Source of the DNA: Diplonema japonicum
Lineage: Eukaryota > Protista > Euglenozoa: Diplonemea
Assembly (NCBI GenBank): GCA_964019335.1
Contig: OZ025689.1
Span: forward strand, 248,001-312,000
DNA length: 64,000 bases
Direction of reading: 5' to 3'
Below the pieces are notes generated by a model. That model did no database searches, was not told the origin of the DNA, and was given only the letters and a program-made list of their open reading frames with translations. Below, in pieces: positions 33,509 to 63,192 of this stretch. The position numbers and the translations under genes were made by a program. Numbering within the stretch: position 1 is the stretch's first letter; the number at the start of each line of letters is the position of its first letter.

Positions 33509-33731
33509 TTAAGTACAGGCATGATTCCCATCACCCTTGTGCGGCCCCGTAGGGGAAGTCCCCTCCACTGAGCAGTCCTCTGCCCGTTCGTCACTTAAAA
33601 AAAAAGGGGGGGGTGTCCTGTACCTCTCACCCAGCTAGTTTACTATTTTGGTGGGTTTCCGGGGATTTATCTTGTTTAATGGCCGAGGGTTGCATCGAGA
33701 ACTTGGTGAACGCCATGAAGCCGAGAAGCTG

Positions 33732-33779
<48 letters not shown>

Positions 33780-34183
33780 CGTTCTCCACACACCATGCCG
33801 AAATAACAGAACCACTCATTAGCAGGGACAGGCTCGTGGTACACAGTTGCACCCACAACAACAACGATGACGTTGCGCACGGTGCCGAGCACCTTCAACA
33901 TGGTGCTGGAGGTGGCTTGGATCACTGCAAAGGTCAGGTAGTTGACCGCTAGGCCCAACACCGCTGCTGCAAGAAACCTGTTGCTGTTTGCAGCGATGAT
34001 GGAATAGTCCCCTGTGAGCCCTATGGTGCGCCACTCTCCACCGAACGCGGCAAACAAGAAAAGGCAGAAGCACGACGGGGGCGCCAAGAAGCACTGGCTC
34101 TCAATGATCGACATCTTTTTCTTCTTCAAAAGGAATTGGGTGAGGACGAGGGCAAGCCCCTCCGTGCCTTGAGCCATCGCCTG

Positions 34184-34222
<39 letters not shown>

Positions 34223-34762
34223 AAAAGAAAATGGGAAATCACACCATCAGGAAGAGACCCACAGGCGTGGCGTGTGCCTCAACGACTGTTGTCGCTGCAG
34301 TGAAGAAGGCGATGGCAAGAACGCTCAACGTGACCGAGAGCTTGGGCCTCCCTTCCACACCTGTTATGACCAAGAGGAAGAGCATGAGGACAGGGGAGAA
34401 GGCTTTCAACATCTGGATGTAACCCATGTTGAGGTGCAGATAGACGGCGTTCCCGAAACTGAGCGTGAGCGCCTTGAAAAGACCGACGAGGAAGCAACTT
34501 TTTTTTTTTTTTTTTTTTTCTTTCCATACCTTATCGCGCCTGTTCCACTGACTTGCTCCCACGCCTCAGGGCTAATAGTTGCTTTCCCCGACTTGACCAG
34601 TGTCCACACTGCCACTGCGATGAAAACCTGTCCGAGACTGCTAAGTGTCACAGGGTAACTAAATTTCAAATCATGCAAGATGTGCTTGTTCAACACGATG
34701 AGGCTCGGGCCGACAATGATGTACAGCATCGACATCACGAAAGGTTTCATGAAACTTGCCAT
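33509..34762 (-). CDS. Triose-phosphate/nucleotide-sugar transporter family (DMT, SLC35-like), paralog 1, 5 exons
   Basis: LNKHILHDLKFSYPVTL, GNAVYLHLNMGYIQMLKAFSP, VNYLTFAVIQATSSTMLKVLGTVRN. GT-AG introns 34498-34529, 34181-34244, 33729-33793 and (tentative) 33594-33630 give a continuous frame. Confidence 0.85.
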
Positions 34763-36302
34763 GTCCTTCTCTTCTCGCATTGCGGACCCTTACCTGCGGG
34801 TGGGAATGTAGAATCGATGAATGGTTGGGGAAAAAAAAAGAGGGGGTTTTTTTGGGGGGATAAAAAAAAAAGAAAACGGCAAGCAGGGAAAAACGGCGAT
34901 GAAGAAGGCAAATAAAAAAAAATGAAATAAAAAAAAAAAGGAAGAAGAAAATTGGGGAGAGTGGAGTCGGGTGTGACAACAACAAAAAAGAAAAAAAAAG
35001 GGGGGGGGAAGAGGGTGAAAGGGGAAGGAAAGGAAATGGGCTTCATCTCTTTTTCTTTTTCTTCTTTCTTTTTTTTGTTGATCCAGAAAAACCATGTCCC
35101 TTTTTTTTTTGTTTGAATTTAAAAAAAGATTTTAAAAAAATAATAACAATAATAAAAAGGGGGGTCCCACCCTCCCGCTTTTCTGTTCTTTTTGAAAGCT
35201 CTCTTTGCAGCCTCTCCTTCTTTTTTTTCTTCTTTCTTTATCCTTCGGCGGCCGGGACACGTGAAGTAAGAGAGGAGAGCAAGAAGAGAGAAAAAAAAGA
35301 TTATTCCTGCCGCCTTCTTTGGGCTTGATAACTTCTCTTGCACTCATTTCCTGTTTCTTCTCTTGAAGCAGGTCAACACGGAACGGTATTTAAAAAAAAA
35401 ATTGAAAGAAAAGGGAAAGGGAGGGGGAAAAAAAAATTGTACAACCCGTGAAAAATAAAATTCGCATTGATGGGAGAGAAGCAGTTCGTGACCCCTCACC
35501 ACAAAACAGGGAATATCTACATTTTTTTTTTTTCTTTTGATTCTTTTTTATTTTTTTAACCTGGCGTGAAGTCCCATACTGGGAGGAAATGGGAGTGCAT
35601 TGAGAAACGAGATCAAATTTCTCCTCTTGTTCTCGTTCCTTACATACACCCCTCTCGCCCACTACCCGTCCTGGAAGAAAGAAAACAACTAAGGGGGAGA
35701 AGGGATGGAATAGAATAACATTAGAGTTATTATAATGGAAAAAAAAGGGGGGGAGGGGATGATTGGGGCCGGTGGTACGTGTCTTTGAAAAAAAAAAAGA
35801 TTCTGACTAGGCAACCAGAGGCTTGGCCCCCCTCCTCTCAATTATTATTTTGCCTGCACCATGTTCTGGTTAGGATGACGAAAAAGAACAAAAAAAATGT
35901 GGGAGCACCAAAATTCCCCCTTTAAACTACCAGTATGGCTAAATCATTGGTGGGTGGAGGGGGGGGGGGGGGGGGGGTGAGGGAAGGTTCCAGTTTTTAT
36001 ACATGATGCCGAGCCAAACATTTTCCAACACTTCCAAACGGTCTGCAAGGGTGGCAGCTTGACACTGTCATGTACAGAGATTAAAAATATTTTTACTGAA
36101 ACCTATTCACCACATCCCAGTCGCACTCCTTTTGGAATTTAGCTGGCGGGTAAGGTTAGCCAAAGACTTGTTGCCAACATTCTTTTTTTTTTTTTTTTTT
36201 CCCGATAACTACCATAACAAGTGTTTCATTGTTCATCAAGAAGAAGAAAAAAGAAAAGGAAAAAAAAAAATTGAGGAGGTAAAGGGTATCATCACTTCCT
36301 CT

Positions 36303-36340
<38 letters not shown>

Positions 36341-36823
36341 GAGGGCTGCAAATGCACAGAGAAAGTAAAGTTCGGAAAAAAAAAATAAAAAGTGGTGGTG
36401 AGGGGAGGGAGGTTCCTTAGGAGAGAGATTGTCCTACTATATCTCAAAAAAACTCCTAGCATACACACTCAAGGGGTGGGGTGGGGTGGGGTGGGGGGAT
36501 AGCACGATTGTTCTTGCATTCTTTCGTTCTTTTCCGTGGTATTGCCGTCTTTCCAGACCACGTCTGCAGCTTTCTTTTCAAGGTATGAACGGGGGAAAAC
36601 GGGGGGGGGGGGGGGGGGGGGGTAAATACGAAGGGGGCTTTCGGCATGATAAAAGAAAGTGTGAGTGAGTGTATAAAGTGCATGGTCCACCCTTATCATC
36701 TCTCTCTAGAGATTTTTGAAGGGAAAAAAAAATGAAAATGAGTTGAAGGTGAAAGATCTAAAAGCGAAAAAGAAAAAAGAAAAAAGAAATGAAATCAACA
36801 TGAAACTTCCTATCCCCAGGTTT

Positions 36824-36857
<34 letters not shown>

Positions 36858-36957
36858 TTGTTGCATCCGCGAGAACGAAACAGAACGGGAGGAGAAAGAA
36901 AGAAGAAAAACTATCTAAAATAAAAAGAAGGAAACTGATGATTTTTTTTTATATATA

Positions 36958-38541
36958 CTGTAAAACGAATAATGTCGGACAGAAAAACTCCCGGACACCA
37001 AAAAAACCCGGACATTTTTCCGTCCGGGAGTTTTTCTGGGAAGAAGTTTTTTTACTTAAGGGGGGTAGCAGCTCCCACCACGTTTGCCTGGAAGGGCTTT
37101 ATTCCTTGTGCAGAGCCAAAATGTCACCCTGCGTGGCAGTTTGAATTTTTCTTCCCCTTTCAATGCACCAACAAACAGCACCCACGGGATCTTTAACTTC
37201 TCATAAACCCGTACTTCTTTCGTCAGATTGACCAGTTCGACTACCCAAGGCACGTTGAGCAGCTGGCTTGTGAGGGACCCAACTTTGGTGCTGACACCCC
37301 CGGCCAGCCCACCGGGCCAGTACAAACCCCCGAAAGCAGCTTGGCGGCCTCTGCCTCGGTCAGAAGACGGCAGCAACAGGTTCAACAGAGCCCCCGGTTT
37401 CTTCCAGACGGAAATACTGGACGTTGCTATTCCACCCTACCACACCCTGGCCGCCGCGACGCCGTGATAGCAGCGTATCGCCCAATACGGGATTTAGCAT
37501 CCTTCGGGGGCTGAAAGATTTTTGCTTGAGTCGATAGGTAAACGGGCTTGGCGAGCCTATCCCAGCACAACAAATATGCACCTATGCAGAAGGGCTGCTG
37601 TGCGCCAATCCAGCCCGAAAGACAGACCTGGTAGACTTTGGTGGGGCACTGTCCTTTTCCACTGGCTAGGCTGACAAAATTTTGCAGCAAGAAAGACAAA
37701 AGCCGCAAGCCACCTCCGGAAAGCCCGGAAACGAGAAGGACAACGAGAAGGCACGCTGTTTCACCATGGAATTCAGGTCCATAATCGACACCCATAAAGT
37801 AAGGCCGGAATTGGTCTGGAATACGGGGTCAAAAACCAAAACAAAAAGGGGTGCTAAGGTCGTAAAAGTCCGTGGCTTGGGGGACAAAACGGGCTATAAC
37901 CGAACAGCTGGCTGTTTCCTTGGCTGGATGGCTAAATACAAAGGCAAAGCGGAAACGCAACCGGCAGGGATTATCCGTGCCCCGGTCAAGCACCCGCCCA
38001 CCGAATGGAGCCTAACGGCATCGCCCAATCATTGGGCTAATTATGATACTCGGTATCTGGGTTACGGAGCTGTTTCTTCCTTTTTGCTATAAATTATCGA
38101 TTCCCATGGTTTTGCCGAACGGGCCGATTCTGCTGCTTGTCGGCGACCACAACTCTCACACGACCTATGCCTATGGGTTCGTAGAGTGGTTCGCAGGCGC
38201 AAACGTGCACATTGCTTTTGTCCCCCTGGGCTCACCTACATGGTTCAACCGATGGATATTGGGTTGAACGCAGCTGTAAAGCATCTATTAAGAAAGGTAG
38301 TAGGCCACACGAAGGCTCGACAAGCTGATTGCCTCAGGGGCAGCAAGGGCGGACAAAGATGTAGAAAGGGAACCCTGGGGGTTTCTTCGCGCGGTTGCCG
38401 TTTGCAGCCCAGGCCAGTATGTAGGTGGTAGTGGACCAGGCCCCCTGACGGCCTTACCTAAAAAAAATTCCCGGACGGAAAAATTCCCGGACGCCAAAAA
38501 AACTCGGACATTTTTCCGTCCGGGAGTTTTTCGTTTTACAG
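36958..38541 (+). mobile_element. Degenerate Tc1/mariner-superfamily (pogo/Tigger-type) DNA transposon
   Basis: TIR CTGTAAAACGAA / TTCGTTTTACAG, TA on both flanks, subterminal CCGGAC/GTCCGG repeats, DDE_1-type transposase remnants inside. Confidence 0.88.
37682..38330 (+). pseudogene. Frameshifted DDE_1 (pogo-like) transposase remnant
   Basis: PELVWNT, SPNHWAN, ILLLVGDHNSH and PPGLTYMVQPMDIGLNAAVKH spread over three frames; they match the family motifs I(W/F)NxDET, LLLxDxHxSH and QPxDxG. Confidence 0.8.
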
Positions 38542-38759
38542 TATATCTTCTGGGATTCCCGAATGTCATTTCCTAGCCTTCTGATCAGATCTCTTTTTTT
38601 TTTAGTCTCCTCCTTCTAGTTTCTATTCTCTCTGCAATTTTTTTTTCTTCTTTTTATTTATATACTGATACGGAAGAGGAAGGAGAGAAATAAAAAAAGA
38701 GAAATAAAAGTAAAAATGGTTTTTCCCGCTGCGTTTCTTTTTTTTTTTTTTTCCCCTTT

Positions 38760-40084
38760 TTAACTTGAGGGTTTCAGAGGTTGCTTGTCCTCGTCACTGG
38801 GGGGCAAGTCGTTCTTTGGGGTCGCCGGGGGCGCCTCCTTTCCCTTATTGATGGATTGATATGTGTAGCTCATAAAGCCAAAAAGCTGTTTTTGGTTTTT
38901 CTTTTTTTTTTTTTCCCTTTAAATCTGCATACAGTCCCTCCGTAACACAACCACTCCTTCATGGGGATAGACTCATGATACATGGTAGCCCCCACGATGA
39001 CGACAATGATATTTCTCACAGTACCCAACACCTTAAGCATGGTCCCAGACGTCGCCTGGATCACAGCAAAAGTAAGATAGTTCACAACGGAACCCAAACT
39101 TGCCGCCGCCGCGAACAAAACCACGTTGTCTGACACAATCTTGTAGTCTTGCTGCACATATATCGTAGTCCATTCCCCACCGAACGCGGCAAAGGCAAAG
39201 AGGCAAGCGCATGTTGGCGGTGCCAAAAAGCACTGGCTCTCAATGATCGACATTTTCTTTTTCTTCAACAAGAACTGCGTCACCACCAGCGCAAAACACT
39301 CCGTAGATTGTGCCAGCGCCTATTTTTTTTTCCCCCCTTTGTTTTCAAATACAAAAAAAATTACACATGGTCGGGATTGAACCGACGATCTCTCGCGTGT
39401 GGGGCGAGCGTCCTAACCACTAGACGACACGTGCTTACGCACGATCGCGCCGTGGGTAAATTTAACCATACCATTAGCATCAAACCCATGGGGGTTGCGT
39501 GGGACTCGAGGGCTGTTGTTGCTGCAGTGAATAATGCAATTGCAAGAACACTAAGCATGATCATGAATTTGGGTCTTCCTTCCACGCCTGTTATGACCAA
39601 GAGGAAGAGCATGAGGACAGGGGAGAAGGCTTTCAACATCTGGATGTAACCCATGTTGAGGTGCAGATAGACGGCGTTCCCGAAACTGAGCGTGAGCGCC
39701 TTGAAAAGACCGACGAGGAAGCAACTTTTTTTTTTTTTTCTTTTTAAATTCTGCACCGCACATACCCAAGCATCCCCGTTCTCGAGGTAACTTGCTCCCA
39801 TGCTTCGGGGCTTATGCTTGCTTTTTCTGTCTTGACAAGCGTCCAACAGACCGCAGCAATGAAAACTTGGCCGAGACTGCTCAGGGTCACGGGATAACTG
39901 AAACCGAGATCATGCAGAATGTGCTGTTTTTTTTTTTTTTTTTCCCGAACTGGACCCACCATAATACCTTATTAACTACAATTAGACCAGGACCAACAGA
40001 GATGTAAGTGACACAAAGACCGAGTGCCTTGATCCACATCAATAGGTTGTCATTGTTTGGCTTTTGTTCGGGAAGCGCGGACAT
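38760..40084 (-). CDS. Triose-phosphate/nucleotide-sugar transporter family, paralog 2, 5 exons
   Basis: Colinear with paralog 1. GT-AG introns 39924-39967, 39725-39765, 39320-39471, 38886-38932. Confidence 0.87.
39362..39434 (-). tRNA. tRNA-Val(CAC), 73 nt, intronic, with non-canonical C33
   Basis: GCACGTG TC GTCT AGTGGTTA GGAC G CTCGC CCCACAC GCGAG AGATC GTCGG TTCAATC CCGAC CATGTGT A folds into a full cloverleaf and is followed by a T8 Pol III terminator. Confidence 0.9.
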
Positions 40085-40168
40085 CTTCTTAATTCACTTC
40101 CCCTGAGAAAAATAAAAAAAAATTTGCTCCCCCGAGAATGACAAAACAGGAAGAAAAAAAAAAAAAAA

Positions 40169-41434: not shown

Positions 41435-41627
41435 CTTTACTTCCCTGTTTGAAATGCATAATAATCCTTTTTTAACTCTGCTTTAGGAGGGGGGAAAAAA
41501 AATAGGAGAAAGAAAACAGAGGGGGATGAGGGAATGCATAAGCTCACACGAAAATGAGATAAAAAAAATAGCAATGAAGGTGTGTCTTGTTCCCTTTCTC
41601 CTCTTACTTTTTCTTTTTCTTTTCCAG

Positions 41628-44849: not shown

Positions 44850-44951
44850 ACTCACCCCTCCTGTGGTTGTGTCGAATGTCGAATACTTAAATACACACTA
44901 AGAAAAAGAGGGTTGAACTAAACGTTTATACAGATACAATACAAAGCGCAG

Positions 44952-46971: not shown

Positions 46972-47850
46972 TTAAACAAAATCGTAATCGTTTTCCAAGT
47001 CCCGCGGGTGCGAGCACAACATGCTTGAGCAGTTCAGCACAAAATTCTTTTGGCGGAAAGGGTGGGTCTTTGTGTTGCTGCCACCGAAAATATACCGGTA
47101 CTTCTCGTACTCGCGCACAGTGAGGCCGATAGAGAGAAGCTTGCAATAGAACAGAGTGTGATGGAGGAGGAGAACCAGAGTCATAAACGCCATCACTATA
47201 ATGAAGAACCCCATGAGTTCTGCAGAGGCAACGAGAGAGGTAAGTTGGTGGAAGTTTCGTGTATAACTGTCTCTGCTGACAAAATAGTAGCCAACCCAAG
47301 CGATGATCCATGCTGAGAGGAAGAACCCAAACCAGATGAGAGAGACAAAATACCGTAAATTGAACCGCCCCACACATGTTCCAATAATGCCACAGTGGTG
47401 GTCAAACTTGTCAACGCAATGGTTGCAAAAGGAGCAGTGCGATCCTCGAGGAGTTCGCAAGAGGTTGCACGTGGTGCACCACCGTCTCACAACCTGCACA
47501 TTGTCGTCATACTCTACTATCTGATCGTATTCTTGCAGCTCAATTCCGTTGAATACCCGTTTTTCCTCGTGTCGTTCCGGTAATGGGGAGCTATGCGCCT
47601 TCAACACCCCTGGTTCCGTGAACACTGCCATCACCACATTGTACGTAAACGCTAGAACAGCACCCACGGTGACGCCCAGCACTACCCAGCTCCCGCTTGC
47701 GAAATAATAAATGAACACCCCCACGATCCCGTGGGCGTACAAAAGCACAAATATCATGCTGTTCCACCCGGAAGCAACTTCTCTCCCGCACGCTTGTGTC
47801 TTTCCAAATACCATGCTGCGACCTTCTGTTTCATCGTCGCTGTCTTGCAT
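46972..47850 (-). CDS. DHHC palmitoyltransferase
   Basis: WCTTCNLLRTPRGSHCSFCNHCVDKFDHHCGIIGTCVGRFN, 4 TM segments. Confidence 0.95.
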   Translation of the reverse strand: MQDSDDETEGRSMVFGKTQACGREVASGWNSMIFVLLYAHGIVGVFIYYFASGSWVVLGVTVGAVLAFTYNVVMAVFTEPGVLKAHSSPLPERHEEKRVFNGIELQEYDQIVEYDDNVQVVRRWCTTCNLLRTPRGSHCSFCNHCVDKFDHHCGIIGTCVGRFNLRYFVSLIWFGFFLSAWIIAWVGYYFVSRDSYTRNFHQLTSLVASAELMGFFIIVMAFMTLVLLLHHTLFYCKLLSIGLTVREYEKYRYIFGGSNTKTHPFRQKNFVLNCSSMLCSHPRDLENDYDFV

Positions 47851-48240
47851 TGTCCTGAAAGCGGTGGTGGGATGGGGGGGGGGTAGGTTTTCTTTTATAA
47901 AATAAGGTAAGAAGAAGAAAAGGCGATGTTTAAGGGCAAATCACTCTCACTTTGCTCTCTCAAACTGGAAAGGCTTTCTTTTTACCGTGCACCTCTCGTT
48001 AATCTTCTATGGAAAAAAAAGGGGGGGGGGGGGCGGAGCAGAACTAAACGAAAAACTTGGCAGCAAACAAAAAAAAAAAAAAAAAAAAAAAAAAAAACGT
48101 TCACATGGTGGAAAGGGGGAAATGTTTGGTAACAATCCCCCCTCCCCCCCACTGCACAAGGAACCCGGGGGAAGAAAAAAAAACTTAAACAAACTCACGC
48201 GGTTTTTCTTTTTTTTTTTTTGTTTTCTTTCCTTATCTCA

Positions 48241-49272
48241 TTACACGTTGCTTTCAATCAGCGGATACGAGGTGGCCCACGGGTCTTTTTTAACCGGAGA
48301 CTGAACCCGGCTGGAGAGAAGCGAAGCCGGGGGTTTGCAGAGCATTGCGAAGCAATTGTAGAAACAACAGGTGTCAAAGGGTGATGGAGAGCTTCCAAAG
48401 AGATAACCCCGCTTCTCCCATTCGCGTTGCGTGTGTGCGAAGATGGTGTACTTTACGTACAAGAGACCAAACCACCCAACAGACCACAAGACGAGCCCGC
48501 AGTAAACGAGAAGACAGATGGACACAATGTTCGCACCGTCGGGGAGATCTACGCCTGGGTCAACCAAGTGGTCCATGAAGGAATCTTTGTAGAAATGGTA
48601 GTAAGCGGACCAACTCGCCACCCAGAGCGCCATGGCGGTGCTTGTCCAGAGGAATCCTGCGAAGAATCTGAAGTTTCTCCCCCCGATGCAGGCCCCGAGC
48701 AGGCCGCAGTGATGGTCAAACATGTCAACACAATTATTGCAATACGAACAGTGTGAAGCTCTTGGCGGCCTTAACACTTTACATGTCGAGCACCATCTTC
48801 GGACTAACTCAGGCCCCATCTCCCCTACAGTACAGAGTTTGTCATAGTGCAGTAAGTACGTGTTTCCCCATGTGATGGTTGCCGCTTCGTTCTCTTTTGG
48901 ACACCCGCCTGTGAACCTTGGTATCACACCTGGTTCCGTGAACACTGTTAAAAACATGAAGATGTGCACAAACCCGACAAGCACCGCAAGGGGTATCCAG
49001 ACTACCTTCGACTCCCGTGCGATGAAGTTCACGAACAAAGCCATGGGGGGCAGGATGAACACCGCTGAAATGATTAAACACTTCCACCAACCCTCCGCCA
49101 CGTGCAGAATGCCGCAGAGCCACCGCGAGGAGGGCATCAGCACACCTTCCTCTTCCTCTTCGTCCTCTTCGCTTTCTATTTTGCTTATCCCATCGTCTTT
49201 GATCATTGTTTCTAAGAGATGCTGGTCGGAACCCGACAGGCCTTCCAAATCTCGCTCGTTGGGGGTTTCCAT
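48241..49272 (-). CDS. DHHC palmitoyltransferase, tandem paralog
   Basis: WCSTCKVLRPPRASHCSYCNNCVDMFDHHCGLLGACIGGRN; start inferred at METPNER. Confidence 0.95.
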   Translation of the reverse strand: METPNERDLEGLSGSDQHLLETMIKDDGISKIESEEDEEEEEGVLMPSSRWLCGILHVAEGWWKCLIISAVFILPPMALFVNFIARESKVVWIPLAVLVGFVHIFMFLTVFTEPGVIPRFTGGCPKENEAATITWGNTYLLHYDKLCTVGEMGPELVRRWCSTCKVLRPPRASHCSYCNNCVDMFDHHCGLLGACIGGRNFRFFAGFLWTSTAMALWVASWSAYYHFYKDSFMDHLVDPGVDLPDGANIVSICLLVYCGLVLWSVGWFGLLYVKYTIFAHTQREWEKRGYLFGSSPSPFDTCCFYNCFAMLCKPPASLLSSRVQSPVKKDPWATSYPLIESNV

Positions 49273-49401: not shown

Positions 49402-50970
49402 CTATAAAGCATTTGTCTCACGGCGCTTGCTTACAGCGTGCGTCGCGCTTGTCTGTTCGGCAGGCTGTGTTTCTTCCTCCTCCTCGTCTTCACGTTTCTC
49501 GCTGCTGGACCGTATTTGATGCCACAAGCCCGCAACGTACCCGGCAATGGCCAGCGTGAGCCGCAGCACGTTGACTGTTCTGAAAGTCTCGCTGCGTCCC
49601 TCAAGATTGATGTTTGTCTCCAAAGGCCGTCTGATGGTGGCGCATTCTGGTGTTTTTTGGTTCTTTTTTTTTTCTCTCTATTTTCAGTATATACTTTTAC
49701 AGCAGTACACAGTGTACCTTGCAGAACCCAAGACGGGGTTGAGAATGATGGAGCAAGATTGCACGAACCAGTTCCAGCCGTCGGAGATAGGCGCCTGTGC
49801 AGTGATACGACCGGTCGCACCGCACAATTCTGAAAAGGAACAAAGCTGGGAATTGTCGGCGGAGCAAATCTCAACCGCTTTTGAATAAGAAAAGGGTGTG
49901 GTGGGATCGCTTTCCACCACAAAGGAGGCCCGTCCCGTGCTGGGGTAGTCGCATTTTGTGGCGCAGTCTTCACACCAGCAGCATCCTTTATCCTCGCACC
50001 GTTGCACCGTGTTCGTGTTTATGTGACAATTGCTCTGCGCGACCTGAGCCGGCACAGGCACAGGGGTCGCGCCTGGCGACAAGGGACGGGGCATCCTTCC
50101 CATGACAACTTCAGAACGGGGTTTGTACTCGTGATCGATTTGTAACCGATGTTCCCAAAGCACATCGTCGAACGTAGCAGTGTAGACACAGCACAGCACG
50201 ATGCCACCGTATAGAATGGCTTGGAGGATGTGGTGGAGCACGAAAGGAGTCCATTTGTTTGTGTTGACGCAGCCCTTGCTTTCGTAGTGCTCGGGGTCCG
50301 GTTGCAAAACAACCGCCAGCGGGCACAACGCCGCAGCAAATGAGAGGTATGAGATGACGTTGAGCGTCTTCTGGAGCGGGTCGGAGTAGCTTTTGTAGTG
50401 CCATATAAAATCACTGTACTTCATGTTCGTCACGAAGAGAACCAACATGAACAGAACAAGCAACGCGGCGCGGAGGTGTGAGAAAGCGAGGTTTACCGTA
50501 ATGATGATGTTTCTGAAATCGAGGTCCGTCTGCGGCTTTTGCTTTTTCGACACGGTGGGGTCGTCTGGTGTAATGGCGGCGGGTGCATGGTTTGCATGTT
50601 TGAAGTCCCCAGTCAGCGCTGACTGAACATACTGCCCAACATACCCTTGCCCCGCAGGCTCAGGGGGAAGCGGGTATACGTTCAGAACGTTGTGCCTCAT
50701 TGGTTCTCTCTTCACAAAATCGGTTTCAAGGATGTTTATTTGAACAGATTCCCTTGGGCTCAGAGGGGGGCTGTCGAACTTTCCCCGTTTCCCTTGCTGC
50801 TTCACATCCCCGCCCAAATGTCTCGGCGTCAGGAGCACTTGCGGCCCGTGACCCGGTGTCAGCATGTTCCTTGGCTGTTCTATTTTCGCTTCCGCTTTTC
50901 TCTTCTTTTCTCGTCTGTGTTTCTTGTCTTTTCTGCGTCGCTCTTTACGGGGTTTTTCATCTTCCTCCAT
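49402..50970 (-). CDS. Hypothetical multi-pass membrane protein with Cys-rich loop (trefoil-like CEDKGCCW), 2 exons
   Basis: 3 TM segments, then a Cys-rich region. A tentative A-rich intron at 49647-49694 joins ORF 49402..49623, supplying a 4th TM. Confidence 0.65.
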
Positions 50971-53194: not shown

Positions 53195-54177
53195 TTAATT
53201 CCATCCGTACTTCTGTGCAGTTCTCTCGAAAGCGACCCTGGCCTCGCTCTCCTATGTAAAGTGTGTTTGTGAGGGGGGGGAAAAAAAAACTTGCAACAAA
53301 ACCATACCTGGTAGTCACCCGTGACGGAGAAGTCAAGCCTTGCCTTAGCTTCGGGGTCTGTTATCTCTGCCCTGATCGTTTCAATGATGGATTCAATATC
53401 GTTCACCGGCTTCCAGCCTTTGGTGGTAAGCAGTTCGTGGCAGATAGAACCGCCGATGGTGACCCTCCCAGTGTGGAACTGGAACCTTGGGCGGATAATA
53501 CGGAGAAATGGGGGTTTGAACGGGTAGTCAGGGGGGAAGGTTAGGGACATCTCTACGAAGTCTTTCTGAGTTTGCTGCTTGAGCTTTTGGAAGTCTGTGT
53601 AAAGAGGAGTGCCCTTCTCGAAATCGAACAAGCGGATCTCCCAGTGGTACAGGTCGCCTTGGTGAGGGGTCGCATCCCAGCCGAACTTCGTTTTGGAGAG
53701 GAAAATGCTCTTGTAGTCGGAAAGGATCCTGTCGGTCGAGGCTTTGTTTCCTTTTCCCATCTTGAGCTTCGTTAAGATCTCCTCGAACTGCCTTTCTTTT
53801 TCGATCATCTCCGGTGTTTTCTTTGTACTCACCGCTGCTACGATCGGGATATCCATGGGATCGTCGTCATCGTCATCGCAGTCGTCACCGCTCCCCTCAA
53901 GCTCATCCAGCTCATCACTCACTTCCGTATAACATTCCGTCGCCGCCTCTAGCAGTTTCACAACGTCGTCGTGCTGCCTCTCCCGCATCAGCTGCAACCA
54001 CTTCTTCACAGGCGCTCTCGGATCCTTGCACTCAATATATAAGGTCGTCAGTGCCACCGTGAAAGAGTACCTCCCCGCAACACTGATGAACACCTTCCCA
54101 TCCTTCTCTTCGTCTTCCTCGAGATAGAAGTACTCCTCGTTCTTATCAGACTCTGCCCATTCCCTGATAGCGTCCAT
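53195..54177 (-). CDS. Ubiquitin-conjugating enzyme E2, UBE2Q-like, 2 exons
   Basis: FPPDYPFKPPFLRIIRPRF..GGSICHELLT. Intron 53252-53306 gives the family-typical end DYQESEARVAFERTAQKYGWN*. Confidence 0.92.
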
Positions 54178-54367
54178 AGGATATATAGGTTCCCCCCCTT
54201 TTTTTTTCCGTGTGTATCGGTATATAAAAAAAAAGAAGAAAAAGAGGACCTTTTCTTTTTTTCTTTCACCCCTTTTCCGGTATTTCCTTAGAAACCCGCT
54301 TCCAGACGCAGGTTGAAACGTGAGAAACAAGGGATGTGAAGGGGGTAAAAAAAAAAAAAAAAAGACT

Positions 54368-56029
54368 CTAAAATACTCTATCTACTGTTCGCGGCGGGTA
54401 CCGGTCAGGGGGTGGGTTATAAGGAGGCCTCCTCGGCGGGCTCACCATCCGGTCCGCCATCGCCGCCGGGTTGTGGATTTGTAGAGGAGGGAGCACAGAA
54501 AAGTCACGGCCGATTGTCTCGCCGTGATCCCACAAGGGGCGCGAAGTGCGCCAAGGTATGCGGACTGTGATGAAGGAGACAGGCGGTTTAGACCGCACTC
54601 TGAATTCCTGCAGACCGCGCTTTTCCAGAGCAAGGGACAGAGCATCAATGGGCACGTGGTACTCAGCTTCGAACCAGCTCCCTTCCTTCCCCCTGAGGAT
54701 GTTGTCCATGACGGAATCAGCGCATCGTTCCGCATCCTCGCTCACTCCCTTCACCTCCACCTCGTACTTGAACACAACCCTGTCACGCCCTGCGCATTCT
54801 ACGATGACGTCTTCCATCCCACGCTCTTCAAGCAGACGGTTCACCTCCCGCAGTACATGCACTTCATGTGGATGCATGTCCTGTGCTTGTAGCATGTCAT
54901 TGTACGCTGTCCGACCCTGTAGTGTCCCTGCTTCGATTGTTTTAAGTATAGCGTCCAGTACGCCCGTCGCCAAGCTCACAATGAAGTCTTGTGTTGCGGG
55001 GTCTGCAGTGAGGAATTGCTGTATGTCGGTTTGCATCATCCGATACAGAATCCTCGAGACGCCTTGGAAACGGTGGCGTCTCACAGACATTCTTCCTGCT
55101 GCCCACTTCCCTGCCTTGTACATCAGCCACGCTCCGTGATGCGCGTCGGGCATCTTGGCACACTGACCCATCGTCGTCGCCCAACCAGACCCTGTGTCGG
55201 GGTCTCCTACCATCCACCCTGTCCCGTCGGCAGTGGAGAAGATAGATATTTGCGCAGCATCGGCCACCCACACCGGGCGTCCCTGGACCACCTTCTTATC
55301 GTGCAGCCTATACACGCCCTTCAAAGCAGGGTTGTCGTCGGCTTCGATCCACAGCTCGGGTGGAATATACGCCATGTTCACACCCGTGCACGCCTCCCAC
55401 TGAGTACCATTGTAGTACGACCAACGTGCAAGGGCGTGCGGCCAAGCGTTGCTTTCCTGACTGACCAACCACACGTCACTACCCACAGCGCTCCCGATGG
55501 CCCAATTCTGTTTCGACAAATGTAATATGTGCGCAGGTTCCGAAGTGCGCACCCACGTAGGGCTCCCCTCCGACTCCTCATACGCCATTCTATACCACCC
55601 GTTCAGGGCAGGATTTTTGGTGACGGATACCCAAAGGTCCAAAGGGTAGAGGTCAGGGGGGACATCTTTCTCAAAGGTGAGGGTGTAGGTGCCGCACTGT
55701 CCCTGCTGAGGATGCGGAACGTAGCCCCGTGCCTGCATTGTGGTCTGAATAGAATCTTTGAGCACCTCTGGTTGGTCGATCGGTGACTTCATGTTGAATG
55801 TTTTCAGTACGCCACGAGGCACGGCGATCATCAGTTCCACCAGCCGGTCGCACTCCCGTTGGATCGCTTCGCGCGCGTTGTGTGCAAATTGCTCTTCTAG
55901 GGTCTGGAGCTGCCCATGTTGCTCTTCATCCTCCTCTTCGGAAGGCTCCGCTGTGCCCCCTGCCTCCCCGTCATAAAACTCAGGAGGCATCTCAGGCTCA
56001 GGCGCCAGCCCATCTTCGATCTCGGACAT
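54368..56029 (-). CDS. Hypothetical protein with two Trp-rich beta repeats (GxYR...GxPxW)
   Basis: 553-aa ORF; NPALNGWYRM..GSPTW and NPALKGVYRL..GRPVW. Confidence 0.75.
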   Translation of the reverse strand: MSEIEDGLAPEPEMPPEFYDGEAGGTAEPSEEEDEEQHGQLQTLEEQFAHNAREAIQRECDRLVELMIAVPRGVLKTFNMKSPIDQPEVLKDSIQTTMQARGYVPHPQQGQCGTYTLTFEKDVPPDLYPLDLWVSVTKNPALNGWYRMAYEESEGSPTWVRTSEPAHILHLSKQNWAIGSAVGSDVWLVSQESNAWPHALARWSYYNGTQWEACTGVNMAYIPPELWIEADDNPALKGVYRLHDKKVVQGRPVWVADAAQISIFSTADGTGWMVGDPDTGSGWATTMGQCAKMPDAHHGAWLMYKAGKWAAGRMSVRRHRFQGVSRILYRMMQTDIQQFLTADPATQDFIVSLATGVLDAILKTIEAGTLQGRTAYNDMLQAQDMHPHEVHVLREVNRLLEERGMEDVIVECAGRDRVVFKYEVEVKGVSEDAERCADSVMDNILRGKEGSWFEAEYHVPIDALSLALEKRGLQEFRVRSKPPVSFITVRIPWRTSRPLWDHGETIGRDFSVLPPLQIHNPAAMADRMVSPPRRPPYNPPPDRYPPRTVDRVF

Positions 56030-56156
56030 TCCGCGACCTGATCATAATTATCAGAGACAAGTTCCGAGCCATAGTACAAAACACAAGGGGTAAAGAAATA
56101 CAGAGAAGAGAGAGGACAAAAAAGGATGAAGTGAGTACAAAGGGATGCGTTCTTTT

Positions 56157-56814
56157 CTACATAGACCACGAGCCACCAGGAGAGTAAGGGCCAGGTGGGA
56201 TATAAGTTGGGGGTGGCGGGGAAGTGGCCACCTGGTAAGCAATTGGGGTAGGCGCTACGTGGTGAGTAGGGACTTGATGGTGCAGTTGCTCGATCATATC
56301 CTTCAATCGCTGGGCTTCAGCTGTTGTTTTTTTTTTTTTTCTTTTTCTTCTTTTTTTCTTCTTCTCTTTTCCCTTTTCCATTTTTTTTTTTCGCTATACC
56401 ATAATCTTCCACAGCCACGGCTTGCTGCTTCCTCTGTTGAAGCTGACTGAGGTTCATTTGTTGGTCGTAGTTGACAGGAGGTTCCAGCTTTCCCACAGAT
56501 GAGTTTTCCAACACGGCCCGTGCTCCCGAGAGAGTGTACAAGATCCTGTTGTGGGGATTGCCCACAACGCTCCTCTGGTGATGTACGGCGCAGGCATGGC
56601 TGCAGAAGTACTTACCGCAATCAAGGCAGTGCACCTCCGCTTCCTTTCCGCATGACGTGAAGGAACATTTTGCCCTTAAGCCTCCACCTCTGTCTCCGTG
56701 CCTCTTGGAGGAGGCCCATCGCCGCGACCCATCATCGTATCCGTAGGTAGCAGTGAAGGATTGCTTGGGGTACGGCTTCCCGTCGGTCTCGTCGATTCTC
56801 TCTTCCACGTCCAT
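56157..56814 (-). CDS. B-box zinc finger plus UVR (UvrB/C) motif protein, 2 exons
   Basis: CSFTSC..AEVHCLDCGKYFCSHACAVHH..HNR. Removing intron 56321-56399 restores KQQAVAVEDYAEAQRLKDMI. Confidence 0.85.
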
Positions 56815-56912
56815 AGTGCCTGTGACAATAAACAAAAGGGCGGGAAGCGCAGAAAAATATTAACTTGGGGTACAACTTGGGAAATGGGCTTACAAAGGAA
56901 AAAAAGAGAGAG

Positions 56913-59900
56913 CTACATATCCTCAAATGCATCTACCTCTGACATCTCGCTCAGCATCTGCCGCGCCTGCACCTCACCCATCAGCCCGTCGGCTACATTC
57001 GCCGCAACGCCCGCCAATGCTGTGGCATCGACAGTTGGGTACGAAGCCCGGAAGCTCTCCTTAATGGCCTGGAGGTTTGGCGACGCAGGTGGTGGTGGTT
57101 GGAAGGTAGGTTTGTACGTGGGTGATGCTGAGGTGTACCTTTTAGGGGACTGCGACTGCGATGTTGCACGCCACTCGGCGGCAGTGGCCCTAGCCTCCGC
57201 TTCTTCGACACCTTTTCTAAAGACCTTGCTGCTGAACCAGTCAGGGATGTCCCCGATAATTTCTAATCTGAAGCCATTAGCACCCACCCAAAGCTCGCCC
57301 CTATTGTCCGACACCACTACTTCTTCAGGCCTATCCGCCCATCGCAACCTTAGTTCCAAGCCTTGTGGCCTGTCGTCTTTGCCATCTTGCTCAATGTCCA
57401 GCGCCCAGTACCCTTCCTTCTCCTCCATCACAAACGTCCCGTCATTGTTCAACGTGAGCGACGTCGCACTGCCCCATTCTTCGTGCTCCGCCTTAAAAGT
57501 CGCCTGCTGCCCGCTCTTGATGATCATGTCTTGGTTCTCCAACCTTGATTGGTACACAGCTGATGTCTCTTGTATCTGATGCTCCAGCTTTGCAATGTGC
57601 TTCTGTAGTCTCAACACCTCTTCACTGCTCTCTTGCGTTTGTTGTGATGCCACCCTCGCCTCGCGTAAGGCTGCTGTTGCGTTGTTCTCCAACACTGCCG
57701 CTGCGTTTTCCGCAGCGGTTGTCCTCTCAAGAAGTTTGGCGTGCTCATGACTTGTAGGGCGACCTTCAAGAGTCTTGCAGTGTGCGTCGGCCTCTGCGAC
57801 CATGGCCCTCAAGGACGCAGCTTCCATGTCAAGTCTCAAATTTGTTGCAAGAGCATCTTCGAGCTTTAACCTAGTGGCCTCCGCTTCAGCATTGGCATCT
57901 ACAGTGTCTGCTTGCATGCCCGACATGACCTCCTGCTGGAGCCTCCGTGCAGCTTGGTATACCTCGCACTGCTGGCAATCCTTTTCGACAGGCACCACCT
58001 TCAGGTTGAGCTCCTCTTGCAACGCTTCGCTCTTCGCCTTGTATTGCCCCAGCATTCGCATAGTCTCGATGTTCTTGGTCACTGACTCCTCAAGCTCCGT
58101 CTCCGCCCGCAGGTACCTGCTGCGTGCCTTGTCTACTTCTTCATGCAGGCTCATCACGTCGCTTTGCAAAGCTGCTTCCTGTTCTTCGGTTTTTCTCGTT
58201 TTCTCGTCAACCACCGCAAACCTGGCTTGCAGAGAGGTCACCTGACCCGAGAGGTTGTCCCGTTCGGTAATCAGTTTCTTCTGCAACAATGACGTGTGCA
58301 ATGCATCGCTTGAGAGCTCTTTTTTCAGTTCTTCAACCTCTTGCTGCAGTGTCTTTCGTGACGCCATCACTTCTTCCATTTCATTCTTTGCGATGAGGTT
58401 CGACTCTTTACTCGCCAGCATGTACTGCTCGAGGTCTTCGCGGCGCGCTCTCTCCTGACGCAGTTCCTTTTTCACCGAGTCAAGTTCTACCTGTGCCTGG
58501 AGCGCAGTGTTGTTCTTAGAAGCAGTTGTTTCGCGCAACTTGTGCATCTCTACCGCATAAAGTCTCTCAGTCTCGTGCCGTCTGTTCGCTTCAGCTGACT
58601 GCACTGACACAGCAGCCTCCAAGCTCGCCGCAGCTTGTTGCATCTGCGCACGAGACTTAGAAGCCTCTTCAGAGAGGCGCTCGATGCGTGTCTTGTTGTC
58701 TTGGATAGTGCTCTTTAACTTTTCACGTTCAATTTCATGGATTCTAGTGGCCTCCTCAAGCTGTACCTGTAGTTTCTGGGAGCTCTCTTTGAACCGGTAA
58801 GCCTCTGTTTCGTAGTGTTGCGCCTCGTGTTTGGCTACAGCAACTTCGTTCCGTGCCGCTTGCAGCTCTGTGTTGGCAGCCTCATGCTGCTCTTTGATCC
58901 ACGAGCTTTCATTATTTTGCAACTGCACATTTGCAACATCCGCTGTGAGGTCCTTCACCCTGTCCTCGAGTGTGTCGTTCAACTGTGTCTTCGCTTGAAG
59001 GGCTGCTTGTGTCGTGTGGCAAGCTTCTGAGAGTCTATCAAGCTCCAGACCAGATTTCCTCAAGGCATTTTTCAACTGTGTCTCCCTCTCCATGTAGATT
59101 TTGACCCTCTGTTCCAACTTCGACAGCTCGGTACTCTCGGTGCTTCTCAGAGTAGCTTCGTTCTTCCACAACGCTGCTTCTGCCGCTTTGGCATTGAGTT
59201 CCTGTTTCAGAGCTTCGAGCTCTCCTTGGCTGGCAGGGTCTTCTGTTGTGTTGCACTCGGCATCGAGAGTCTCAGGTATCTTCTTTGTGGTTCTCTTCAG
59301 TTCTTCAATCTCTACAGTGAGGCTGTCGGCAGTACTGCGCTGTGTCTCGTACAAGCCCTGCAAGTGCGCAACCTGCGACTGATACTTTGAGGTTTCTTCA
59401 ACGAGCGCATGTTTCTGTCAAGCATTGTCGTCGCTGGTGAATACATACTTGAAATTTGTAGTCCTCCACTTCTCGCTCTAAGTGGCCAATGGACCTTTCG
59501 TAATCCTTGTCCGCTGCTGCAGCTGCTTCTAGCTTCTCTTGGAGCTCTGCAAGCTCTGTACGAAGCGCTGCATTGCTTTCCTGCAGCTGCCCTCTCTATT
59601 GTATGTTGTGGTGGGCGATTAGACACACCTCTTGAAGCACGCTCTGTTGGGTCAGCTCAAGCTCCCGGACCCTCTCATCCTTCTCTGCCAATAGGTTGTC
59701 GGAAGTCTCCTTCGACGACACAAGATCATCAATTATCTTCTGCGAGATGGCAGACTGTTCATCCGTGTGGTCGGCTTCCTGCTGAGAGGTTGATTTGCCA
59801 AGACCCTCATACCTCTTTGTGCTTCTGGGTGAGTGTGTCGATTGTTGCCTTGTACTCTTCGAGTGTGCCTTCGACATGACAGTGTGACTCACGTTCTTCA

Positions 59901-59976
59901 CGCAGTGAGTTGTAATGCAACAGCGAGAGCTGCAATGCTGAATGGTGTTGTTCTGTCGTGGCTTCCAGTAGCTGTC

Positions 59977-60018
<42 letters not shown>

Positions 60019-60887
60019 CTTCCCCACTAAAATGAGTAGCCACTAAGACAGGTGAGGTTTTTTATTGTTGTTGTTGTCATTACCTCAGTGAATGTTTCAG
60101 ATTGCAGCTCGCTTCGTGCGCTAAGCTCGGAACGTTGAAGCCGTTCATTTTGAAGCCCAAAATCAAGAGCTGAACTCTGTGTCGCGACCTGGCTCCGCAC
60201 CCTCTCTAGTTCCATGACATGTGCTTGGTTTGCATTCTCTAGTTCAACGCTTGCCCGTTCCTGCTTTCTTTGAGCTTCCTCTTTCGCACTCTCACTGCTC
60301 TTGACACGCTCCCTCGCCTGCTGCAGCTGCTGCCGTGTAGACTGGATGATCTTCGCCGCCTCATTCAACTGCTCCTGTATGTCTGTTGTCGCTGCAACCT
60401 TTGTCGTTGCTGTGGACAGTTCTGCGGACCTGCTGTCGAGGTCTTGCTTGTATCTTTCTGCAGTTGATGTTTGCTCCTCCAGCTGCCTCATGAGCGAAGC
60501 CACTTGGAGCCGCTGCAGCAACGCATCAGCCTTATGCACTGGACCGTTCTTGTACATGTCCACAAGAGAAGCGTGAATGCCTTCCACTAACCTCCATGTG
60601 TGTCTATGTGACACAAGAAGCATGGTAGCTATGGTGCCGATACTGCCTGTAGCAGCTGTGCTAGTGCTGATAGACGGGGTTGAGATCTGCACGTTGTGGT
60701 TCAAGGCCCCCTGGTTCAGCTGCATGAGACACGCCGCCGCACGGGCCGAGTCCTCGCTCCTGAAAGATATGCGGGCCAACCCGTCCACCATTCTGATGTC
60801 AACATCGCGCACAGGTGCGAGCAACGCCTGCAGCTCACCCACACCCCATCCTTGTGGGAGGCTTATTTCCAACTGCGGGCCGTCCAT
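56913..60887 (-). CDS. Large coiled-coil protein with N-terminal RRM-like segment, 5 exons
   Basis: GT-AG introns 59972-60083, 59779-59812, 59596-59628 and 59415-59448 join four ORF-track fragments into one heptad-rich frame. Confidence 0.8.
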
Positions 60888-61174
60888 CTCATCTTACTCT
60901 TTAACACCTGTAGAGGTAATCAAGTCTTCACAAGCAAAAACAAGGTAGAAATGAGCTCAATGGGTTAGCTGGCACATAACTCTGATGAAAAAGCTGCGAC
61001 ATCACACATCGAGCCTTTCACAAATCTGATGACAAAGTGTGATGAGTTCCCTGCGAGTGGTTACAATGTCCTTTTTTTTTTAAGATACTTTCGCTTTGCA
61101 CGCACGGCGTCGGCTTCGGGTCCGTCAGCCTGGACAGAATCAAGAAAGATAAGTTGGCGAGTAACCTTCGTGTC

Positions 61175-62948
61175 TTACATTCGTTGTGGGCATACCATTT
61201 CGTTGATTCGCATCTTATCTGCAGATGCGGGTGCCTCAAGGTACTTTACCAAATCGTCTTGCAGGGTCATGATCTCAGACTCAGCCACTGCAAGCATTTG
61301 CATTGCCTCAGAGTCCATGCCATGGTCCTCGAAGACCTCGTCCCCATCTGCGTCTTCGTCGCCCACAAGCCCTTCAGCCATACCGCCTTCCTGCAGCCTC
61401 CTCATCATGTCTAGAAGCTCTTGCGGTATTTCTGCACCTGCACCTTCAATTCCCTCCACACCTTCATTCTCACCTTCCTCAAAGGCCTCCTGTGGCAGCA
61501 CCTCAACCCTGCCCATATGCGCTGAAGCATCACATTGCGCATGGTGGACGAATGCGGCACTCCTTGCAAGCGCGGGAAGCTCCGCCACCGGTACAAGTGA
61601 TCCGTCTTCGTGGGCATTCTTCACCTTCAATGCAATACCGATGAGCCATTTGATTGTCGGGCCTCCCCACAGTTCTGCACTTCGTGTCACATACAGGTTC
61701 ACAAGCCCTTCAACCGTGGGCGCCTGATCGGGAAGCGTTGTAGTCAGCAGCTCCTCTGCACCTGTCTCCCCCATGGCCTTCACAGCATTGATGATCTGCG
61801 GCACTGCATGGGGATACCACCTTACCGCATCTGTCAGCAGACGGTCAGCTCTTGCGTCTTTGTTGAACTTTGCCGACAGCGCGACACCGAACTTGAAACA
61901 AGGTATCTTCGAGGTGTGCTGCATCCACTCGCGGTGCTCCGCCATCTCCTTCTGCAGGTCCATGAACCACTGCCATTGCCCAGACTTCACGGCGCAGTAG
62001 TCAAGGAGCAATAGTGCATGGCAGGGGTCGTTCTCATTGAAGTTGAAGAGCATCTTAAGCCACTCCAGGGCGGTTCTGTGACAGCCTCTTTTGATCATGC
62101 TCTGCACTTTTACCTGAATGGTAAGGAAGAGGTCTTTATTGGCCCCTTCGAAGGGCATCGATCTGACGGAGAAAGGCGCCGTCCATGAGAAGTCGGGCGG
62201 GGCTGAAAGGGATGCGGTATACAAGGCCTGATCGATCATCGCGGCACCTTCGGAGAACTCGCCCATCTGGCAGACGATCTCGTTGTATTTGAGTAGAGTT
62301 GGAATGTAGTAAGGATATTTGTAGAGGAGGGCGTCAAAGGCTTGAAGGCGCATCGAGTTCACGGCTTGCTTCAGCAACGAAGCTGCTTTGAGGCAGTCAT
62401 CAGACTCCACGAGGTGCCACTTGGGCATCTCCCCGCCTGTCGACGTCATTGAATATCCATGGTTCTGATACCTAGGCCATGTGTCTTGATCAGGCTTTGC
62501 AAGAAGTGTTTCTCTGAAACGTAAAGCCTTCTTGGGCGCCTGGGGTCCGTAGCCGTGTTGCCTGTTGCGTTGTCTTCGGTTGTCGGCGTTCGCCTCGCGC
62601 CTCTCATGAGCAATGGCTGCTGTCCCGAACATTTTCTTCAACTCTTCGTCCGGATTCAAAGCACCTCCGGTGCACGTCATGAGCTTCGCTAGTTCGGAGT
62701 TCACCCTCTCTTCTTTTGCAAGTTCCTTCTTGTTTTTTCCTTTGTTCAGCTTCTTGGTATGCTCCATCAGTATTGCGTCAATGTCTTCTGACTCCGACGA
62801 CTCTTTTACTTCCTCCTTCACTTGCTGCTTCTTTTTTTTCTTTTTGCTTTGCCGTGTGGGCTGCGTGTTGACGTGTTTGGCGGCAACCTCCGGTTCATTG
62901 CCCTCTCGTGCTTTCTTCTGTTTCTTCTTCTCGTTTTTTCGATTTTCT

Positions 62949-62985
<37 letters not shown>

Positions 62986-63192
62986 TCTTCTTCCCTCTTC
63001 TTCTTCATCTTCTTATTTCACTATTCCTACATACGTGATGTCGCCTTGATCATCGAAGGCCCCGTCACACCATCTTCCTCGCTTTCGCTAGCCCTGCATG
63101 AAAGAAGGGTAAACAAGTGTTCTTTCCTGTTTTAGTACATACCTTCCTCCCAGCAGATCGTTTCCATGAAGTTTCTTGAGTAACCGTGACAT
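61175..63192 (-). CDS. TCF25: TCF25/Rqc1 ribosome quality-control factor
   Basis: KYPYYIPTLL, NKDLFL...KRGCHRTALEWLKMLFNFN.NDP..ALLLLDYCAVKS. Start MSRLLKKL. Introns 63094-63142 and (tentative) 62947-63034. Confidence 0.85.

What the first reader, a model, noticed from the sequence alone, without database searches (positions are those of the whole stretch)
33729..63034. Cis-introns with poly(A)/purine tracts in place of a polypyrimidine tract, while putative trans-splice acceptors are pyrimidine-rich
Seen: of 19 GT-AG introns reconstructed by frame or motif restoration, 11 have A-runs next to the 3' AG: 34498-34529 (GTATGGAAAG-A21-G), 34181-34244, 33729-33793, 39924-39967, 39725-39765, 39320-39471, 38886-38932, 56321-56399 (almost all purine; removal restores the UVR motif), 59972-60083, and tentatively 49647-49694 and 62947-63034. 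Several others are C/A-rich. In contrast, AGs just upstream of start codons (858, 40103, ~41481, 47855, ~49286, 56820) follow T/C tracts. Established: U2AF65 normally reads a U-rich tract at 3' splice sites. Inference: this organism may tell cis from SL trans acceptors by A-tract vs Y-tract, which implies a non-standard 3' splice-site recognition system. A few cis-introns (8856-8888, 33594-33630, 63094-63142) are pyrimidine-rich, so the rule is not absolute.
Basis: partly seen in the sequence, partly recalled or inferred. Interest (0 to 1): 0.8.

Follow-up and report, generated by a model that had tools for sequence, protein, structure and literature searches.

The report
Poly(A) introns versus pyrimidine leader acceptors
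In the marine protist Diplonema japonicum about half of the short introns seen here end in a run of A instead of the usual U/C tract (already published), while the sites that receive the spliced leader keep U/C-rich tracts, which likely keeps leader addition and mRNA cleavage out of introns.

Summary
The window is Diplonema japonicum: three spliced gene models equal EukProt D. japonicum proteins letter for letter (346, 661, 1253 aa). All 11 listed A-tract introns are GT-AG at the given coordinates; 6 are proven by these mRNA-derived proteins. One listed exception (33594-33630) is not an intron. Three trans acceptors carry spliced-leader ends in RNA contigs.

In my set, 11 of 20 cis 3' ends are at least 60% A, against 0 of 21 trans acceptors (3 shown, 18 predicted) and 14 of 347 intergenic YAGs. 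A-runs sit at the 3' end (p about 1e-4) and are not strand-symmetric.

Limits: 7 of the 11 lie in one paralog pair, 9 of 20 introns lack a 3' A-tract, and trans-site pyrimidine enrichment over background is weak (p = 0.02).

The A-tract is already published for this species, with U2AF1/2 present (PMC12621601). I did not find the cis/trans contrast in print. Likely mechanism: short introns are defined without a pyrimidine tract, which is reserved for trans-splicing; a dedicated A-reader is possible but unshown.

The parts
33729..33793 (-). cis-intron, TPT1 intron 3, A46 ending 5 nt before the 3' end
   Evidence: ortholog P0121 and paralog position
34181..34244 (-). cis-intron, TPT1 intron 2, U-rich 5' half then A33
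   Evidence: ortholog P0121 and paralog position
34498..34529 (-). cis-intron, TPT1 intron 1, 32 nt, A21, no pyrimidine between +7 and -4
   Evidence: ortholog P0121 and paralog position
33627..34780 (-). TPT1, sugar-phosphate transporter-like gene, 330 aa; stop lies inside the claimed 33594-33630 intron, which is rejected
38886..38932 (-). cis-intron, TPT2 intron 4, A-rich 3' end, AG at -17 skipped
   Evidence: spliced model = D. japonicum P0122
39320..39471 (-). cis-intron, TPT2 intron 3, holds tRNA-Val(CAC), T8, then A9 before TAG
   Evidence: P0122
39725..39765 (-). cis-intron, TPT2 intron 2, A14, ends AAG, AG at -17 skipped
   Evidence: P0122
39924..39967 (-). cis-intron, TPT2 intron 1, A17
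   Evidence: P0122
40103..40125 (-). predicted trans acceptor of TPT2, U-rich
   Evidence: nearest-YAG rule; not shown by reads
49647..49694 (-). likely cis-intron, A-rich 3' end
   Evidence: frame restoration only
53252..53307 (-). likely cis-intron, T9C8 in the middle, C/A-rich 3' end
   Evidence: frame restoration only
56038..56060 (-). trans acceptor, spliced leader joined at 56038
   Evidence: loose end in run X1
56321..56399 (-). cis-intron, almost all purine, A14 near the 3' end
   Evidence: frame; contig lengths in X1 and X2 imply removal (indirect)
56820..56842 (-). trans acceptor, spliced leader joined at 56820, U-rich
   Evidence: loose ends in X1 and X2
59415..59448 (-). cis-intron without A-tract
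   Evidence: P0162
59596..59628 (-). cis-intron, C/A-rich
   Evidence: P0162
59779..59812 (-). cis-intron without A-tract, distal AG of a tandem acceptor used
   Evidence: P0162
59972..60083 (-). cis-intron, A40
   Evidence: P0162
60908..60930 (-). trans acceptor, spliced leader joined at 60908
   Evidence: loose end in X2
61051..61088 (-). cis-intron, A10 at the 5' side only
   Evidence: joint in X1; P0168
61166..61195 (-). cis-intron, 30 nt, C/A-rich
   Evidence: 30-nt gap in X1; P0168
62947..63034 (-). cis-intron, A35
   Evidence: P0147 and P0168
63094..63142 (-). cis-intron with a pyrimidine-rich 3' end (true exception)
   Evidence: joint in X2; P0147
8856..8888 (-). likely cis-intron with a pyrimidine-rich 3' end
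   Evidence: frame only
2807..2844 (-). cis-intron, A/T-rich
   Evidence: frame (1348 vs 1163 aa); the paralog at about 8030 lacks it (by eye)

Best explanation
[quoted passage not shown] Shown: the introns, three leader sites, and the compositional contrast. Inferred: (1) a U/C tract next to an intron's AG would invite leader attack and premature cleavage of the polycistronic transcript, so it is selected against there; (2) the A-run is an unstructured, AG-free spacer that supplies the branch adenosine and, in some introns, the minimum length; (3) it grew by slippage from an older A/C-rich 3' end. No new A-binding factor is required.
For: Cis 3' ends average A 0.62, T 0.13; trans acceptors A 0.23, T 0.35. 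T-runs are tolerated inside introns but not at the 3' end: 34181-34244, 39320-39471 and 53252-53307 have U-tracts upstream of A- or CA-rich ends. A-runs are anchored at the 3' end (12 introns with a run of 8 or more, permutation p = 1.3e-4). The tract is optional (9 of 20 lack it) and its length varies from 9 to 46 nt, as expected of a spacer. 34498-34529 has no pyrimidine between +7 and -4, so U2AF2-type tract binding is impossible there and the branch A must lie among its purines. None of the 11 A-tract introns has YTRAY, and the nearest skipped AG is 17 nt or more upstream. Without the run, 4 of 11 would be 11-27 nt, under the shortest intron seen (30 nt). 9 of 11 fold at -2 kcal/mol or weaker. 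Genome-predicted proteins close to R. humris read through three orthologous TPT introns whose last codons imply A+C of 0.79-1.0. In T. brucei the tract drives trans-splicing and upstream polyadenylation, purine insertions harm it, and there is no branch consensus (PMC9639853, passages). In S. mansoni trans acceptors are more U-rich than cis ones (PMC5832876, passages).
Against: Three of 20 introns have 60% or more pyrimidine in the last 20 nt, among them the proven 63094-63142, so a tract there is not fatal. For the 9 introns without an A-tract, T and C+T do not differ significantly from trans acceptors (p = 0.27 and 0.10). Only 3 trans sites are shown, from runs about 2-3% diverged from the window; two of them are just 55-60% pyrimidine in the last 20 nt. 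Strict 3' anchoring of pure A suggests a positive role that avoidance alone does not explain. Branch points and coupled polyadenylation were not mapped. 7 of 11 cases come from one paralog pair (7 of 7 vs 4 of 13, p = 0.005).
Confidence: 0.5

Rival explanations
1. The A-tract is a positive cis-acceptor signal read by a dedicated protein (a diverged U2AF2 paralog or a nuclear poly(A)-binding protein), so cis and trans acceptors use two different recognition routes.
For: 3' anchoring; 11 of 20 cis vs 14 of 347 background; all three paralogous TPT intron pairs keep the A-tract although the proteins are only 236/346 identical; A is the commonest tract base over 10,131 introns (PMC12621601). Poly(A)-binding Nab2 affects splicing in flies (search listing and abstracts only).
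Against: 9 of 20 introns splice or likely splice without it; lengths vary fivefold; U2AF1/2 are reported present (PMC12621601); relatives use CA-rich ends (PMC12621601). No splicing factor could be examined here.
Confidence: 0.22
2. The A-runs are neutral: diplonemid introns have an old A/C-rich 3' bias, and slippage in this homopolymer-rich genome expanded the A's, with no bearing on the cis/trans choice, which depends only on an upstream 5' splice site.
For: 115 intergenic A or T runs of 8 or more in 18.8 kb; the TPT pair lies in the most run-dense part (7.3 vs 4.4-4.5 runs per kb); trans-site pyrimidine content is close to the intergenic background (p = 0.02).
Against: On the same transcribed strand intergenic runs are mostly T (70 T, 45 A) but intronic ones are A (13 A, 2 T); the contrast holds outside the TPT pair (4 of 13 vs 0 of 21, p = 0.015; vs 14 of 347, p = 0.002); only 5 of 45 intergenic A-runs have a YAG within 7 nt.
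Confidence: 0.22
3. The A-runs are tails of retroposed elements inserted into, or creating, the introns.
For: Sense-strand poly(A) at a 3' end; one intron holds a tRNA gene.
Against: Three TPT intron positions are shared with a Rhynchopus-like genome, so they predate the A-runs; the introns show no common body upstream of the run (by eye); insertion would not favour one orientation and the 3' end.
Confidence: 0.04

Closest known systems
Atypical poly(A) tracts at the 3' splice site of Diplonema japonicum introns (Thakur et al. 2025, RNA, PMC12621601)
   Same: Same species, GT-AG introns, GTATG donor (12 of 20 here), CAG acceptor (14 of 20), A the commonest base in the last 20 nt, rare YTRAY.
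   Different: The paper's text (parts 1-4 of 8 read, plus a term search) does not analyse leader acceptors: 'spliced leader' and 'outron' occur 0 times. It offers no mechanism beyond a flexible spliceosome. Its supplements could not be read and may bear on this.
Kinetoplastid SL trans-splice acceptor (T. brucei; PMC9639853)
   Same: Leader joined at an AG after a U/C-rich stretch in a one-strand gene array.
   Different: Tracts here are weaker (55-75% pyrimidine in the last 20 nt at 3 shown sites) and coexist with many cis-introns; coupling to polyadenylation was not tested.
Euglena gracilis conventional introns and outrons (PMC11170887)
   Same: Euglenozoan with both cis- and SL trans-splicing and an unusual tract.
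   Different: In Euglena both classes share the same C-rich tract (passages); here they differ in kind, purine versus pyrimidine.
Trans- versus cis-acceptor bias in Schistosoma mansoni (PMC5832876) and Ciona (PMC11155486)
   Same: Trans-spliced acceptors or outrons are richer in U than cis ones (passages).
   Different: There it is a matter of degree; here half of the cis acceptors have lost pyrimidines almost entirely.
Noncanonical introns of hemistasiid diplonemids and euglenids
   Same: Same phylum, unusual intron signals.
   Different: Those lack GT-AG and pair their ends; these are GT-AG and mostly unstructured.

Membership tests
U2-type (major) spliceosomal intron | GT...AG ends, removed from mRNA | tested here: met
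   20 of 20 GT-AG; 12 of 20 proven by identical mRNA-derived proteins
U2-type (major) spliceosomal intron | 5' splice-site consensus | tested here: met
   GTATG in 12 of 20, GTGTG in 3 of 20, as in PMC12621601
U2-type (major) spliceosomal intron | polypyrimidine tract before the AG | tested here: not met
   11 of 20 are 60% or more A; 3 of 20 are 60% or more pyrimidine. The tract is typical, not universal, so this does not remove them from the class.
U2-type (major) spliceosomal intron | branch-point consensus and lariat | tested here: inconclusive
   YTRAY in 0 of 11 A-tract and 2 of 9 other introns; lariats not mappable
U2-type (major) spliceosomal intron | U1, U2 and U2AF present and used | not testable with these tools
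   no genome held; presence reported in PMC12621601
D. japonicum A-rich 3' splice-site class (PMC12621601) | species is D. japonicum | tested here: met
   three spliced models identical to EukProt D. japonicum proteins
D. japonicum A-rich 3' splice-site class (PMC12621601) | A is the commonest base in the tract region | tested here: met
   mean A 0.62 in 20 introns, 0.58 in the 12 proven
Euglenozoan SL trans-splice acceptor | leader joined at an AG upstream of the start codon | tested here: met
   loose ends at 56038, 56820, 60908; the motif occurs in an SL review (PMC3795323, search listing only)
Euglenozoan SL trans-splice acceptor | pyrimidine tract upstream | tested here: met
   55, 60, 75% in 20 nt and 62-71% in 80 nt at the 3 shown sites; only modestly above background
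Euglenozoan SL trans-splice acceptor | tract also sets upstream polyadenylation | not tested
   no poly(A) sites mapped; contigs only
Euglenozoan noncanonical intron | non-GT-AG ends brought together by base pairing | tested here: not met
   all GT-AG; 9 of 11 A-tract introns fold at -2 kcal/mol or weaker

The most novel reading that the evidence does not exclude
D. japonicum runs two acceptor codes in one nucleus: a U/C tract read by U2AF2 marks sites for spliced-leader addition and polyadenylation, while a poly(A) tract bound by a separate factor, and itself holding the branch adenosine, marks cis acceptors. This would be a sequence-level switch between cis- and trans-splicing.
Probability: 0.2. 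Interest if true: 0.78.

Novelty: new variant of a known kind. Interest (0 to 1): 0.42.

Why it matters
How one spliceosome chooses between cis- and leader trans-splicing at an AG is unsettled, and in the systems I read about the two acceptor types are alike (Euglena) or differ by degree (Schistosoma, Ciona). A species where many cis acceptors are almost pure A and trans acceptors are U/C-rich gives a sharp natural contrast for tract-swap tests. It also shows proven introns spliced with almost no pyrimidines near the AG. The A-tract itself is already in print, so the added value is the cis/trans comparison and the mechanism it points to. Practical use: gene finders for Diplonema need separate acceptor models.

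Tried and rejected
No whole genome was held, and the genome index did not complete. So there is no genome-wide logo, no DNA of orthologous introns and no look at U2AF or U2 snRNA.

No listed sequencing run is on record as RNA; X1 and X2 are taken as RNA because they carry leader ends and joints. Reads were laid only on 54400-63400, so the TPT introns and their acceptors have no read-level test. The read tool skips repeats, so no A-tract junction appears as a joint.

A metagenome scan with P0122 found no related locus. Two look-ups of earlier findings returned nothing. Supplements of PMC12621601 could not be read.

A nearest-AG rule for trans acceptors was dropped because it missed the shown site 60908 (it still gave A p = 3e-4, pyrimidine p = 0.03). 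The nearest-YAG rule recovers 3 of 3 shown sites and was used instead; it probably miscalls some (e.g. 54368, 50998), which were kept in the counts. Three ORFs with uncertain starts (947-2074, 10189-15000 and the gene cut at the window end) were left out of the 21.

Rejected: 33594-33630 as an intron; a possible intron near 10200-10230 (no GT-AG fixes the frame, by eye); my first boundary 59782-59812 (the mRNA uses 59779). Strand-symmetric expansion and retroposon tails were considered and disfavoured.
Full report
Organism. All long ORFs with Pfam hits lie on the minus strand. The SNF2 ORF's best hits are diplonemids (78% D. ambulator, 62% D. papillatum). Three spliced models equal EukProt Diplonema japonicum proteins letter for letter: the transporter TPT2 (P0122, 346 aa), TCF25 (P0168, 661 aa) and a coiled-coil protein (P0162, 1253 aa). 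The window is therefore D. japonicum.

Introns. I assembled 20 introns. Twelve are proven by the three identical mRNA-derived proteins; for the 8 in TPT2 and the coiled-coil gene a boundary scan showed GT-AG to be the only canonical solution. Five are supported by an ortholog, a paralog or contig lengths, and three by frame only. The claimed intron 33594-33630 is rejected: the TPT1 stop lies in it and the D. ambulator ortholog ends at the same place.

Trans acceptors. Two runs that differ from the window by about 2-3% carry the same non-genomic end at 56038, 56820 and 60908. The motif occurs in a spliced-leader review (search listing). These runs also show joints at 61051-61088, 61166-61195 and 63094-63142. 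For a larger set I took the nearest YAG upstream of 21 start codons; this rule ignores the tract and recovers 3 of 3 shown sites.

Is it more than chance? In the 20 nt before the final three bases, cis ends average A 0.62 and pyrimidine 0.29; trans acceptors A 0.23 and pyrimidine 0.63 (p = 1e-5 and 1e-4). A of 60% or more: 11 of 20 cis (6 of 12 proven), 0 of 21 trans, 14 of 347 other intergenic YAGs. Runs of 8 or more are 13 A to 2 T in introns but 45 A to 70 T between genes on the same strand (p = 6e-4). The A-runs sit at the 3' end (p = 1.3e-4).

Results against a strong reading. Seven of the 11 A-tract introns are in the TPT paralog pair, which lies in the most run-dense part of the window; outside it the share is 4 of 13, still above trans (p = 0.015) and background (p = 0.002). 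Nine of 20 introns have no 3' A-tract, and they do not differ significantly from trans acceptors in T or pyrimidine. Three introns are pyrimidine-rich. Trans acceptors exceed the intergenic background only modestly (14 of 21 vs 137 of 347, p = 0.02), and 18 of the 21 are predicted. The striking half of the contrast is thus the A-richness of cis ends, not the pyrimidines of trans ends.

Mechanism. The introns are 30-152 nt with a good donor (GTATG in 12 of 20). 34498-34529 has no pyrimidine between +7 and -4, so tract binding by U2AF2 cannot occur there; this intron is supported by ortholog and paralog, not by same-species mRNA. None of the 11 A-tract introns has YTRAY, and the nearest skipped AG lies 17 nt or more upstream. 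Under the usual scanning model (established knowledge) that puts the branch point in or at the A-run; this is inference. Four of 11 would fall below 30 nt without the run. U-tracts are tolerated in the 5' part of three introns but are followed by A- or CA-rich ends. In T. brucei the pyrimidine tract directs both leader addition and polyadenylation about 100 nt upstream, and purine insertions weaken it (PMC9639853, passages). If the same holds here, a tract next to an intron's AG would truncate mRNAs. I therefore think it most likely (0.5) that cis acceptors are defined without a tract, that the tract is kept for trans-splicing, and that the A-run is an unstructured spacer and branch site expanded by slippage. 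Genome-predicted proteins 89-98% identical to the R. humris transporter read through three introns at the same positions, with A/C-rich last codons. This suggests an older A/C-rich state, in line with the CA-rich motifs reported for relatives. A dedicated A-reader (0.22) and pure neutrality (0.22) remain open.

What is known. Thakur et al. 2025 (PMC12621601; parts 1-4 of 8 of the text read, plus a term search) analysed 10,131 D. japonicum introns. They report A as the most abundant base in the tract, call it atypical poly(A) tracts, and find U2AF1/2 present. The cis half of the finding is therefore published. The paper's text does not treat leader acceptors; its supplements could not be read. 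I did not find the cis/trans contrast for a diplonemid in searches, nor in passages of PMC10161547 and PMC11613528; the library lacks most subscription journals. In Euglena cis and trans acceptors share a C-rich tract (PMC11170887, passages). In Schistosoma and Ciona trans sites are more U-rich by degree (passages).

Verdict. A real feature, correctly seen. The A-tract is known; the contrast with leader acceptors is a likely new and testable addition, shown here on a small sample. Interest 0.42. The two-code reading has probability about 0.2 and would merit about 0.78.

Noticed in passing
window 39362-39434 (-): tRNA-Val(CAC) gene inside TPT2 intron 3, on the same strand as the host gene, followed by T8. 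The paralogous TPT1 intron lacks it.
   Followed up: partly
window 63193-63222 and other 5' UTRs: Sequence downstream of trans acceptors is A-rich (46% A over 341 nt), with A23 directly before the TCF25 start codon.
   Followed up: partly
window 61166-61195; 59779-59812 and 59596-59628: Short introns without an A-tract are retained in some transcripts (P0147; X1 record 7) whose upstream A-tract introns are removed. This fits faster splicing of A-tract introns or simple 5'-to-3' order; 2 cases only.
   Followed up: partly
window about 10230-10260 (-): Frame switch in the second Patched-like gene with no fitting intron: assembly error or frameshift (by eye).
   Followed up: no
window 2210-23132, 24038-29098, 46972-49272: Tandem paralogs: three sterol-sensing/Patched-like proteins, three alternative oxidases and two DHHC palmitoyltransferases.
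   Followed up: no
window about 36980-37030 and 38460-38530: Two similar, partly palindromic 60-70 nt motifs about 1.5 kb apart flank a segment between the TPT genes; possibly a mobile element (by eye).
   Followed up: no
window 60892 (-): An upstream ATG with a 9-codon ORF lies 5 nt before the main start (60887) of the coiled-coil gene.
   Followed up: no
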